Assembly: GCF_003334385.1 (NCBI RefSeq)
Contig: NZ_QOWN01000006.1
Source: Escherichia coli
GTDB lineage: Bacteria; Pseudomonadota; Gammaproteobacteria; Enterobacterales; Enterobacteriaceae
DNA: 64,000 nucleotides
Reading direction: 5' to 3' (one strand)
Both the position numbers and the translations under genes were made by a program. This document shows positions 28,866 to 29,167 of the stretch, piece after piece. How positions within the stretch are numbered: the first letter of the stretch is position 1; every line of letters begins with the position of its first letter. A model generated the notes under the pieces. That model had not been told where the DNA came from. It did no database searches and saw only the letters and a list, made by a program, of their open reading frames with translations.

Positions 28866-29009
28866 TCACCACGGGATAAACTGGTTAATGGCACAAATTC
28901 CGCTGAAAAATTGTACATCCTGATCGCACATCATGTTGAATACCTGCGCCCAAAGCAGCAAGCAAGCCAACACCACGACAACCAGAACGACCCATCGAAA
29001 CTTTTTCAC
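28866..29009 (-). CDS. mgrB: MgrB, 47-aa membrane peptide (PhoQ feedback inhibitor)
   Basis: Not in track; minus-strand GTG-initiated [50 protein letters not shown] with GGAG SD. Confidence 0.8.
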
Positions 29010-29167
29010 TCCAATCTCCGTTTCACCTACCTTATGTCATTAAACTAGCATGCGTTAGTTAAACAGCGCCTAACTATGTCGATATTCGTGCTTTTTCGGA
29101 ATGAGTCGCTTGCTTCAGCGCATATTGCCGCTACGATTAAGCGAACATAAAAAGAGAAGAGGTTGTA

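What the first reader, a model, noticed from the sequence alone, without database searches (positions are those of the whole stretch)
28866..29075. mgrB: GTG-initiated 47-aa membrane peptide with PhoP-box-like repeats upstream
The minus strand encodes [47 protein letters not shown] from GTG 29009 with a GGAG Shine-Dalgarno; it is absent from the track. Upstream on the same strand are TGTTTA and AGTTTA motifs ahead of a -10-like TAAGGT, consistent with PhoP control, but I could not fix the exact box register.
Basis: partly seen in the sequence, partly recalled or inferred. Interest (0 to 1): 0.35.

Follow-up and report, generated by a model that had tools for sequence, protein, structure and literature searches.

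The report
E. coli mgrB and its PhoP promoter

Summary
The minus-strand ORF at 28866-29009 (GTG start, GGAG six bases upstream, 47 aa) is there exactly as described. It is mgrB: the NCBIfam equivalog scores 89.9 bits against a cutoff of 40, Pfam MgrB gives 2.8e-18, RefSeq calls it 'PhoP/PhoQ regulator MgrB', and the ORF plus the whole intergenic region are 100% identical to K-12 MG1655 b1826. It is conserved at 47 aa in 80 of 82 Enterobacteriaceae loci and shows a coding substitution pattern.

PhoP control is right, but the promoter anatomy needs correcting. The PhoP box is TAGTTA-GGCGC-TGTTTA (29076->29060). It is the orthologue of the DNase-footprinted Salmonella yobG box and lies 12 nt upstream of an extended -10, TG-c-TAGTTT (29050->29042).

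The function is published: MgrB spans the inner membrane, binds PhoQ and lowers PhoP activation, which makes a negative feedback loop.

Verdict: already known, low interest. Minor extras are a non-ATG start in all 82 orthologues and a nearly invariant extended -10 TG.

The parts
28866..29009 (-). mgrB coding sequence: 47 codons plus the TGA stop. It encodes the MgrB membrane peptide, with cytoplasmic K2 and K3, a TM helix at about residues 6-24, and a periplasmic tail carrying C28 and C39.
   Evidence: The ORF is listed. NCBIfam NF007635 scores 89.9 bits against a cutoff of 40, and Pfam PF13998 gives 2.8e-18. RefSeq annotates it as mgrB. It is 100% identical to K-12. It is 47 aa in 80 of 82 orthologues with third-position variation. 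Kyte-Doolittle hydropathy peaks at 2.74 for residues 6-24.
29007..29009 (-). GTG start codon.
   Evidence: There is no in-frame ATG upstream of M26. The aligned codon is GTG in 81 of 82 orthologous loci, TTG in 1 and ATG in none. The neighbours yebO (81/81) and yobH (71/71) use ATG.
29016..29019 (-). Shine-Dalgarno GGAG, six nt before the start codon.
   Evidence: Located. Positions -10 to -7 are nearly invariant across 67 distinct leaders: G 63, G 66, A 62, G 62.
29010..29036 (-). Inferred 5' leader of about 27 nt.
   Evidence: This is inferred from the Salmonella yobG S1 mapping (distance from -10 to +1 = 5, leader 26 nt; PMC3335776 Tables 1 and 2), transferred through the alignment. It was not measured here.
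29035..29036 (-). Predicted transcription start, C29036 or A29035.
   Evidence: GACAT is invariant in E. coli, Salmonella and Klebsiella. In the anchored alignment, A is the majority base 7 nt after the -10. This is an inference by homology.
29042..29047 (-). -10 hexamer TAGTTT.
   Evidence: It lies 12 nt downstream of the PhoP box, as in Salmonella, where the hexamer is TAATTT. It reads TAnnnT in 56 of 64 distinct orthologous promoters.
29049..29050 (-). Extended -10 TG dinucleotide (TG-n-TAGTTT).
   Evidence: TG is found at this fixed offset in 63 of 64 distinct orthologous promoters.
29060..29076 (-). PhoP box: TAGTTA (29076->29071), spacer GGCGC, TGTTTA (29065->29060). It is in direct orientation and occupies the -35 region.
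   Evidence: It is the only positive register in the promoter, at 9.9 bits. It aligns with the footprinted Salmonella yobG box ACAGTTACTCCTGGTTTAA. Half-site 2 reads NGTTTA in 64 of 64 promoters and half-site 1 reads nnGTTA in 60 of 64.
29093..29102 (-). Conserved upstream block ATTCCGAAAA, which reads ATTCC(T/G)AAAA across genera. It is part of the counterpart of the second, reverse-orientation PhoP box of Salmonella.
   Evidence: Column conservation was tabulated. The Salmonella box GTTTTTAGGAATGATTCAC was footprinted. The E. coli counterpart scores -6.8 bits with the matrix, so its status as a PhoP site in E. coli is unresolved.

Best explanation
This locus is mgrB (b1826, formerly yobG), with its PhoP-activated promoter. 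[quoted passage not shown]

Mechanism. When PhoQ is stimulated by low Mg2+, cationic peptides or acid pH, phospho-PhoP binds the direct repeat TAGTTA-N5-TGTTTA (29076->29060). This box replaces a -35 element and sits 12 nt upstream of an extended -10, TG-c-TAGTTT. PhoP recruits RNA polymerase there, and transcription starts at about C29036/A29035. The roughly 27-nt leader carries GGAG six nt before a GTG start. [quoted passage not shown] It binds PhoQ through the TM segment (W20) and the periplasmic tail (C28, C39, G37, D31, F34, W47), with help from the cytoplasmic lysines K2 and K3. This lowers net PhoP phosphorylation, so the output of the system limits its own activity.

Shown here: the ORF, its family membership, its conservation, the box register, the box-to-(-10) geometry and identity to K-12. 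Taken from the literature: PhoP-dependent expression, membrane topology, PhoQ binding and the functional residues. Inferred: the exact start site in E. coli.
For: Identity: NCBIfam equivalog NF007635 scores 89.9 bits against a cutoff of 40 over residues 1-47. Pfam MgrB PF13998 gives 2.8e-18. RefSeq annotates 'PhoP/PhoQ regulator MgrB' in the synteny cspC-yobF-yebO-mgrB / yobH / kdgR. The region is present in 5425 of 5426 complete E. coli genomes. There is 100% identity to K-12 MG1655 over the ORF plus the whole intergenic region.

Coding: the ORF is 47 aa in 80 of 82 loci from many Enterobacteriaceae genera, and entropy is concentrated at codon position 3. There are 20 invariant columns, including K2, K3, W20, D31, F34, G37, C39 and W47.

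Promoter: only one register scores positive. That register aligns with the footprinted Salmonella box. Its spacing of 12 nt to the -10 matches Salmonella, whose -10 is TAATTT, with 5 nt to +1 and a 26-nt leader (PMC3335776). Conservation is 64/64 for half-site 2, 60/64 for half-site 1, 63/64 for the TG and 56/64 for TAnnnT, all at fixed spacing. The composite signature is unique in the window, with 0 hits in 100 shuffles. No sigma-70 -35/-10 pair is detected upstream, as expected for an activator-dependent promoter.

Function, from the literature: deleting mgrB raises PhoP-regulated transcription and over-expressing it lowers it. [quoted passage not shown] The residues important for function are K2, K3, W20, F24, C28, D31, F34, G37, C39 and W47 (PMC8404706), and all are present here. 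PhoP binding to the mgrB promoter is used as an EMSA positive control (PMC8355897). IS insertions between the PhoP box and the start codon cut mgrB mRNA by about 80% (PMC10746255).
Against: The E. coli papers that mapped this promoter (Kato 1999, Minagawa 2003, Zwir 2005) are not in the held library.

The first half-site, TAGTTA, matches TGTTTA at only 4 of 6 positions. The whole box scores 9.9 bits, below the training median of 14.6, and 28 sites in the window score higher.

The E. coli counterpart of the second Salmonella box scores -6.8 bits, so a two-box architecture is not established for E. coli.
Confidence: 0.95

Rival explanations
1. One reading: PhoP binds the two hexamers TGTTTA (29065->29060) and AGTTTA (29046->29041), and TAAGGT (29034->29029) is the -10, so that transcription would start about 15 nt before the GTG.
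For: All three hexamers exist. AGTTTA resembles a PhoP half-site, and TAAGGT has the T-A-n-n-n-T skeleton of a -10.
Against: The two hexamers are separated by 13 nt, not the defining 5 nt (PMC3335776). Registers that use AGTTTA score -2.3 and -7.1 bits. The AGTTTA columns read .GTTTA in only 2 of 64 orthologous promoters, and the TAAGGT columns read TAnnnT in only 9 of 64. With that -10 the leader would be about 12-15 nt, starting right at or only a few nt upstream of the Shine-Dalgarno. The S1-mapped Salmonella leader is 26 nt.
Confidence: 0.03
2. MgrB is a secreted peptide or lipoprotein, as the NCBIfam description 'regulatory lipoprotein' suggests. The N-terminal hydrophobic stretch would then be a cleaved signal peptide with C16 as the lipidated residue, rather than an uncleaved TM anchor.
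For: The NCBIfam NF007635 description says 'regulatory lipoprotein'. The sequence VLAC at residues 13-16 looks like a lipobox. Lippa and Goulian noted potential type I and type II signal sequences.
Against: An N-terminal GFP fusion is functional, is not cleaved, and fluoresces at the cell boundary, so the N-terminus stays in the cytoplasm (PMC2789325). C16A has no effect on function (PMC8404706). C16 is replaced by G in the Superficieibacter and Klebsiella sp. RIT-PI-d homologues. The TM segment, including W20, which lies after C16, is needed for PhoQ binding.
Confidence: 0.03
3. The ORF is a chance open frame, and the real feature is something else on either strand, for example the antisense 62-aa ORF at 28860..29048 (+) or a non-coding RNA.
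For: Very short ORFs are common by chance, and an antisense 62-aa ORF is listed.
Against: The family models match above their curated cutoffs. The length is conserved at 47 aa and the codon-position entropies are 23.6 / 11.3 / 49.2. An antisense frame stays open in only 28 of 76 distinct orthologues. No Rfam family matches the mgrB region. The protein has been detected and characterised genetically.
Confidence: 0.01

Closest known systems
E. coli K-12 mgrB (b1826, formerly yobG), PhoQ kinase inhibitor
   Same: The two are the same at the sequence level: 100% nucleotide identity over the ORF and the entire mgrB-yobH intergenic region. Synteny is the same. Every residue numbered in the mutagenesis study is present.
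   Different: Nothing differs in this region. The window best matches strain SCU-104 over the 1.1-kb query.
Salmonella enterica yobG/mgrB promoter (PhoP promoter 'architecture II' of Zwir et al. 2012)
   Same: The proximal PhoP box has the same position and orientation: ATAGTTAGGCGCTGTTTAA in E. coli against ACAGTTACTCCTGGTTTAA in Salmonella. Both lie 12 nt from the -10, both have the extended -10 TG, both have a conserved GACAT start region, and both have GGAG followed by GTG.
   Different: The -10 is TAGTTT rather than TAATTT. The inferred leader is 27 nt rather than 26. The counterpart of the upstream reverse box is degenerate in E. coli (CTTTTTCGGAATGAGTCGC, -6.8 bits, against +6.0 for Salmonella), so the second box is not established here.
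Canonical single-box PhoP promoters (mgtA, phoP; 'architecture I')
   Same: They share a direct-repeat box in place of the -35, 12 nt upstream of the -10.
   Different: In mgtA and phoP both half-sites are near consensus (G/TGTTTA). In mgrB the first half-site is weak across the whole family: CAGTTA or TAGTTA, i.e. nnGTTA.
Other small membrane regulators of sensor kinases (SafA for PhoQ, MzrA for EnvZ)
   Same: They are small bitopic inner-membrane proteins that modulate a histidine kinase (PMC8404706).
   Different: MgrB inhibits rather than activates, and it needs its TM segment for function, unlike SafA and MzrA. There is no sequence relationship.

Membership tests
MgrB family (Pfam PF13998; NCBIfam NF007635 equivalog) | The sequence matches the family profile above the curated threshold over its full length. 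| tested here: met
   NF007635 scores 89.9 bits against a cutoff of 40, covering residues 1-47 of 47. PF13998 gives 2.8e-18 over residues 19-47.
MgrB family (Pfam PF13998; NCBIfam NF007635 equivalog) | A peptide of about 47 aa with N-terminal K2/K3, one hydrophobic TM segment containing W20, and a periplasmic tail with C28, C39, G37, D31, F34 and W47. | tested here: met
   All of these residues are present, and they are invariant or nearly so in alignment A2. Hydropathy peaks at residues 6-24. The residue list comes from PMC8404706.
MgrB family (Pfam PF13998; NCBIfam NF007635 equivalog) | A conserved genomic position between yebO and the divergent yobH/kdgR. | tested here: met
   RefSeq annotation for E. 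coli. Salmonella loci L082 and L083 have the same order, with the Pfam families YobH, MgrB, YebO, DUF2527 and CSD.
MgrB family (Pfam PF13998; NCBIfam NF007635 equivalog) | It binds PhoQ and lowers PhoP-dependent transcription. | not testable with these tools
   This was shown for the identical K-12 sequence (PMC2789325; PMC8404706). Identity to K-12 was shown.
PhoP-activated promoter (PhoP box as defined by Kato 1999 and Zwir 2012) | A direct repeat of hexamers resembling (T/G)GTTTA separated by 5 nt. | tested here: met
TAGTTA-GGCGC-TGTTTA lies at 29076->29060 and is the only positive register, at 9.9 bits. The first half-site is weak, matching at 4 of 6 positions.
PhoP-activated promoter (PhoP box as defined by Kato 1999 and Zwir 2012) | The box is in direct orientation, 12 nt upstream of the -10 hexamer (architectures I and II). 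| tested here: met
   There are 12 nt (ACTAACGCATGC) between TGTTTA and TAGTTT. The spacing is fixed in all 64 distinct orthologous promoters, as shown by TG at a constant offset in 63 of 64. The definition is given.
PhoP-activated promoter (PhoP box as defined by Kato 1999 and Zwir 2012) | A second PhoP box upstream (architecture II, as footprinted in Salmonella yobG). | tested here: inconclusive
   The block ATTCC(T/G)AAAA is conserved across genera. However, the E. coli 19-mer scores -6.8 bits against +6.0 for Salmonella.
PhoP-activated promoter (PhoP box as defined by Kato 1999 and Zwir 2012) | Occupancy by PhoP-P and transcription that depends on phoP and on Mg2+. | not testable with these tools
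   From the literature: PmgrB-yfp is used as a PhoP reporter in K-12, PhoP binding to the mgrB promoter is an EMSA positive control, and the Salmonella orthologue has been footprinted and S1-mapped.
Bacterial lipoprotein (as in the NCBIfam description 'regulatory lipoprotein MgrB') | A lipobox with an invariant Cys that is lipidated after signal peptidase II cleavage. | tested here: not met
   C16 is replaced by G in two homologues. C16A is fully functional. An N-terminal GFP fusion is not cleaved. The -2 position of VLAC is Leu, which does not fit the usual lipobox; this last point is from my own knowledge of the lipobox pattern.

The most novel reading that the evidence does not exclude
The non-ATG start of mgrB may be a selected translational throttle that sets the gain of the MgrB feedback loop. 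The start is GTG in 81 of 82 orthologues, TTG in 1 and never ATG, while both neighbouring small genes always use ATG. A second feature, nearly invariant, is a GGAG that overlaps the start codon (GGA|GTG, with A at -1 in 65 of 67 distinct leaders). On this reading a GTG->ATG change would over-damp PhoQ/PhoP signalling. My evidence shows the conservation but not its cause. I found no discussion of it in the papers I read, which is not proof that it has never been noted.
Probability: 0.3. Interest if true: 0.25.

Novelty: already known. Interest (0 to 1): 0.07.

Why it matters
For biology this is a textbook element. MgrB is the small-protein brake on PhoQ/PhoP, and losing it causes colistin resistance in Klebsiella and trimethoprim tolerance in E. 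coli. Finding it again adds nothing new.

The result does matter for the scan in two ways. First, a tool-less reader can recover a 47-aa gene that annotation tracks sometimes miss. Second, hexamer spotting by eye gave a plausible but wrong promoter model. The register can be fixed cheaply by combining one footprinted orthologue with an alignment of about 80 genomes. The corrected coordinates for the box, the extended -10 and the inferred start site are useful for anyone interpreting promoter mutations or IS insertions at this locus.

Tried and rejected
1. I tried to read the E. coli promoter papers (Kato 1999, PMID 10464230 / PMC94065; Minagawa 2003, PMID 12813061 / PMC161583; Zwir 2005, PMC548500). 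None is held. A literal search of the library for the E. coli box sequence found nothing. The register therefore rests on the Salmonella footprint plus comparative data.

2. The PhoP matrix alone was not decisive. The mgrB box ranks 29th in the window, so I do not use motif score as the main argument.

3. An IS1 lies within the 1.1-kb region in strain Ecol_AZ155. I checked whether it disrupts mgrB. It lies downstream of yebO and is irrelevant.

4. I considered that the conserved upstream block might make the divergent yobH PhoP-regulated. [quoted passage not shown] I did not test it in E. coli.

5. An Rfam scan of 27000-31000 found nothing in the mgrB region.

6. The simple sigma-70 and terminator scan found no canonical promoter upstream of mgrB and no terminator between mgrB and yebO. 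The first result fits an activator-dependent promoter. The second is left as a side note.

7. Four database 'homologues' (P0051, P0053, P0055, P0056) turned out to be frameshifted E. coli alleles. I removed them from the alignment used for the locus search.

Full report
OBSERVATION. The minus strand of the window carries an ORF from GTG 29009 to the TGA at 28866. GGAG lies at 29019->29016, six nt (ATTGGA) before the GTG, and a second GGAG at 29012->29009 overlaps the start codon. The remark that the gene is 'absent from the track' cannot be tested here. The gene is annotated in RefSeq, and the literature notes that mgrB is often missed by annotation (PMC2789325).

IDENTITY. The peptide matches the NCBIfam equivalog NF007635 (MgrB) at 89.9 bits against a curated cutoff of 40, over all 47 residues. 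It matches Pfam PF13998 (MgrB) at 2.8e-18. A 1.1-kb query around it is found in 5425 of 5426 complete E. coli genomes, where the gene is annotated 'PhoP/PhoQ regulator MgrB' between yebO and the divergent yobH. Over the ORF and the whole mgrB-yobH intergenic region (321 nt) the window is 100% identical to K-12 MG1655, where the gene is b1826, 'PhoQ kinase inhibitor'. Everything published for K-12 therefore applies to this sequence without extrapolation.

IS IT A REAL GENE? A protein search found MgrB homologues named in Escherichia, Salmonella, Citrobacter, Klebsiella, Cronobacter, Lelliottia and others. A scan of one genome per species found 120 confirmed loci, of which 80 were kept, and I added Salmonella. 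The ORF is 47 aa in 80 of these 82 sequences and 48 aa in the other 2. Summed column entropy by codon position is 23.6 / 11.3 / 49.2, the signature of selection on a protein. Twenty columns are invariant in a clean alignment, among them K2, K3, W20, D31, F34, G37, C39 and W47. An antisense frame stays open in only 28 of 76 distinct orthologues. No Rfam family matches the region.

THE PROMOTER: FIXING THE REGISTER. The PhoP box is defined as a direct repeat of (T/G)GTTTA hexamers separated by 5 nt (PMC3335776; PMC8355897).

Zwir et al. 2012 footprinted and S1-mapped the Salmonella orthologue, yobG. Its box is ACAGTTACTCCTGGTTTAA in direct orientation, 12 nt upstream of the -10 hexamer TAATTT. 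There are 5 nt from the -10 to +1, and the leader is 26 nt. A second box in reverse orientation, GTTTTTAGGAATGATTCAC, lies further upstream. The Salmonella locus I fetched reproduces every one of these numbers.

The E. coli sequence aligns without gaps through this part: A TAGTTA GGCGC TGTTTA A ... 12 nt ... TAGTTT. The box is therefore TAGTTA-N5-TGTTTA at 29076->29060 and the -10 is TAGTTT at 29047->29042.

I ran three independent checks.

(a) I built a weight matrix from 36 footprinted Salmonella boxes, leaving out both yobG sites. It gives +9.9 bits for the 19-mer starting at 29077 and negative scores for every other forward register in the 130-nt promoter. That includes TGTTTA as first half-site (-1.5), AGTTTA as second half-site (-2.3) and AGTTTA as first half-site (-7.1).

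(b) I tabulated 64 distinct orthologous core promoters. The second half-site reads NGTTTA in 64 of 64 and the first reads nnGTTA in 60 of 64. A TG dinucleotide sits at the extended -10 position in 63 of 64. The hexamer 12 nt after the box reads TAnnnT in 56 of 64.

(c) The composite signature GTTA-N6-GTTTA-N9-TG-N-TAnnnT occurs once in the 64-kb window, at this promoter. It occurs in none of 100 shuffles, and once each in 72 of 84 fetched loci, always upstream of mgrB. The pattern was derived from these sequences, so this test is partly circular.

A caveat applies to the motif score. On the matrix alone the box ranks only 29th of about 128,000 positions in the window, and it scores below the median of the training sites. 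The case rests on geometry and conservation, not on motif strength. The simple sigma-70 scan finds no -35/-10 pair upstream of mgrB, as expected for a promoter in which the activator site replaces the -35.

WHAT IS INFERRED. The E. coli start site (C29036 or A29035) and the 27-nt leader are transferred from the Salmonella S1 mapping. GACAT at this position is invariant in E. coli, Salmonella and Klebsiella. I could not read the E. coli mapping papers.

The second box is unresolved for E. coli. A block ATTCC(T/G)AAAA (29102->29093) is conserved across genera at a fixed distance and lies inside the counterpart of the Salmonella reverse box. But the E. coli 19-mer scores -6.8 bits against +6.0 for Salmonella.

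HOW IT WORKS. This part comes from the literature and applies to a sequence identical to this one. Deleting mgrB strongly increases PhoP-regulated transcription, and over-expressing it decreases that transcription. The peptide fractionates with the envelope. An N-terminal GFP fusion is functional, is not cleaved and fluoresces at the cell boundary, which places the N-terminus in the cytoplasm. MgrB gives a two-hybrid signal with PhoQ that depends on the periplasmic domain of PhoQ. Homologues from Salmonella and Yersinia pestis act in the same way (PMC2789325).

Mutagenesis shows that W20 in the TM helix is key for forming the complex. K2 and K3 contribute from the cytoplasmic side. C28, C39, G37, D31, F34 and W47 matter in the periplasmic tail (PMC8404706). 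All of these residues are present here.

The mgrB promoter is a standard PhoP reporter and a standard EMSA positive control. In trimethoprim-selected E. coli, IS insertions between the PhoP box and the start codon reduce mgrB mRNA by about 80% (PMC10746255), which fits the box position given here.

The circuit is therefore as follows. A stimulus activates PhoQ, PhoQ phosphorylates PhoP, PhoP-P binds the box at -35, mgrB is transcribed, MgrB enters the membrane and inhibits PhoQ. The result is negative feedback.

RIVALS. The 'lipoprotein' label in the NCBIfam description is not supported: C16 is not invariant, C16A is functional and the N-terminal fusion is not cleaved. A chance ORF or an antisense gene is excluded by the coding signature.

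NOVELTY AND SCORE. This is an already known gene with an already known mode of regulation and function. What the session adds is a corrected promoter map for the window and a few small comparative observations: a universal non-ATG start, a GGAG overlapping the start codon, a near-invariant extended -10 TG, and a first half-site that is weak throughout the family. These may or may not have been noted before. Interest is low.

Noticed in passing
window 29007-29012 (-) and the same position in loci L002-L082: The mgrB start codon is GTG in 81 of 82 orthologous loci, TTG in 1 and never ATG, whereas the neighbours yebO (81/81) and yobH (71/71) always use ATG. The three bases before the start are nearly invariant (GGA, with A at -1 in 65 of 67), so a second GGAG overlaps the start codon. 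This may be translational tuning of the feedback loop; I did not test that.
   Followed up: partly
window 29049-29050 (-): An extended -10 TG dinucleotide is present at a fixed offset in 63 of 64 distinct mgrB promoters across Enterobacteriaceae. It is more conserved than the -10 hexamer itself. The promoter tables of Zwir 2012 that I read do not list it.
   Followed up: partly
window 29090-29108 (-): The block ATTCC(T/G)AAAA is conserved at a fixed distance upstream of the PhoP box. In Salmonella it lies inside a footprinted reverse PhoP box, but the E. coli version scores -6.8 bits as a PhoP site. Its role in E. coli is open: a second PhoP site, a site for another factor, or part of the divergent yobH promoter.
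   Followed up: partly
window 28792-28865 (-), between the mgrB stop and the yebO start: There is no terminator-like hairpin in the 74-nt gap between mgrB and yebO. A promoter-like TTAACC-17-TATCAT with an upstream TG lies at 28888->28860, inside the 3' end of mgrB. mgrB transcripts may read into yebO, and yebO may also have its own promoter.
   Followed up: no
window 27394-27854 (-): An Rfam cspA thermoregulator (RF01766) hit of 135.5 bits, E 7e-36, covers the cold-shock-domain gene at 27469-27678 and the upstream yobF region. The RefSeq record I matched names this gene cspE, although from memory this locus is cspC in K-12.
   Followed up: no
window 25524-25542 (+), 45592-45574 (-), 59396-59378 (-), 22025-22007 (-): These are the highest-scoring matches to the PhoP-box matrix in the window, at 13.6-16.0 bits, above the mgrB box itself. 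The first lies between yobD and mntP. They are probably chance matches; I did not check their conservation or their position relative to promoters.
   Followed up: no
window 29136-29154 (-): A second matrix hit in the mgrB-yobH intergenic region, CTTTTTATGTTCGCTTAAT at 10.65 bits, lies next to the yobH start codon and overlaps its ribosome-binding region on the opposite strand. I did not examine it further.
   Followed up: no
proteins P0051, P0053, P0055, P0056 and P0001, P0004, P0023: Public databases hold frameshifted E. coli mgrB alleles, likely natural loss-of-function variants. They also hold N-terminally over-extended gene calls of 58-64 aa for the same gene in E. coli, Klebsiella aerogenes and Lelliottia. 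This shows how inconsistently the small gene is called.
   Followed up: partly
window 30408-31892 (+): The longest ORF for yebQ starts at GTG 30408 and runs to 494 aa. RefSeq annotates a 457-aa protein that starts at about window 30519 (locus 5120 plus the offset of 25399).
   Followed up: no
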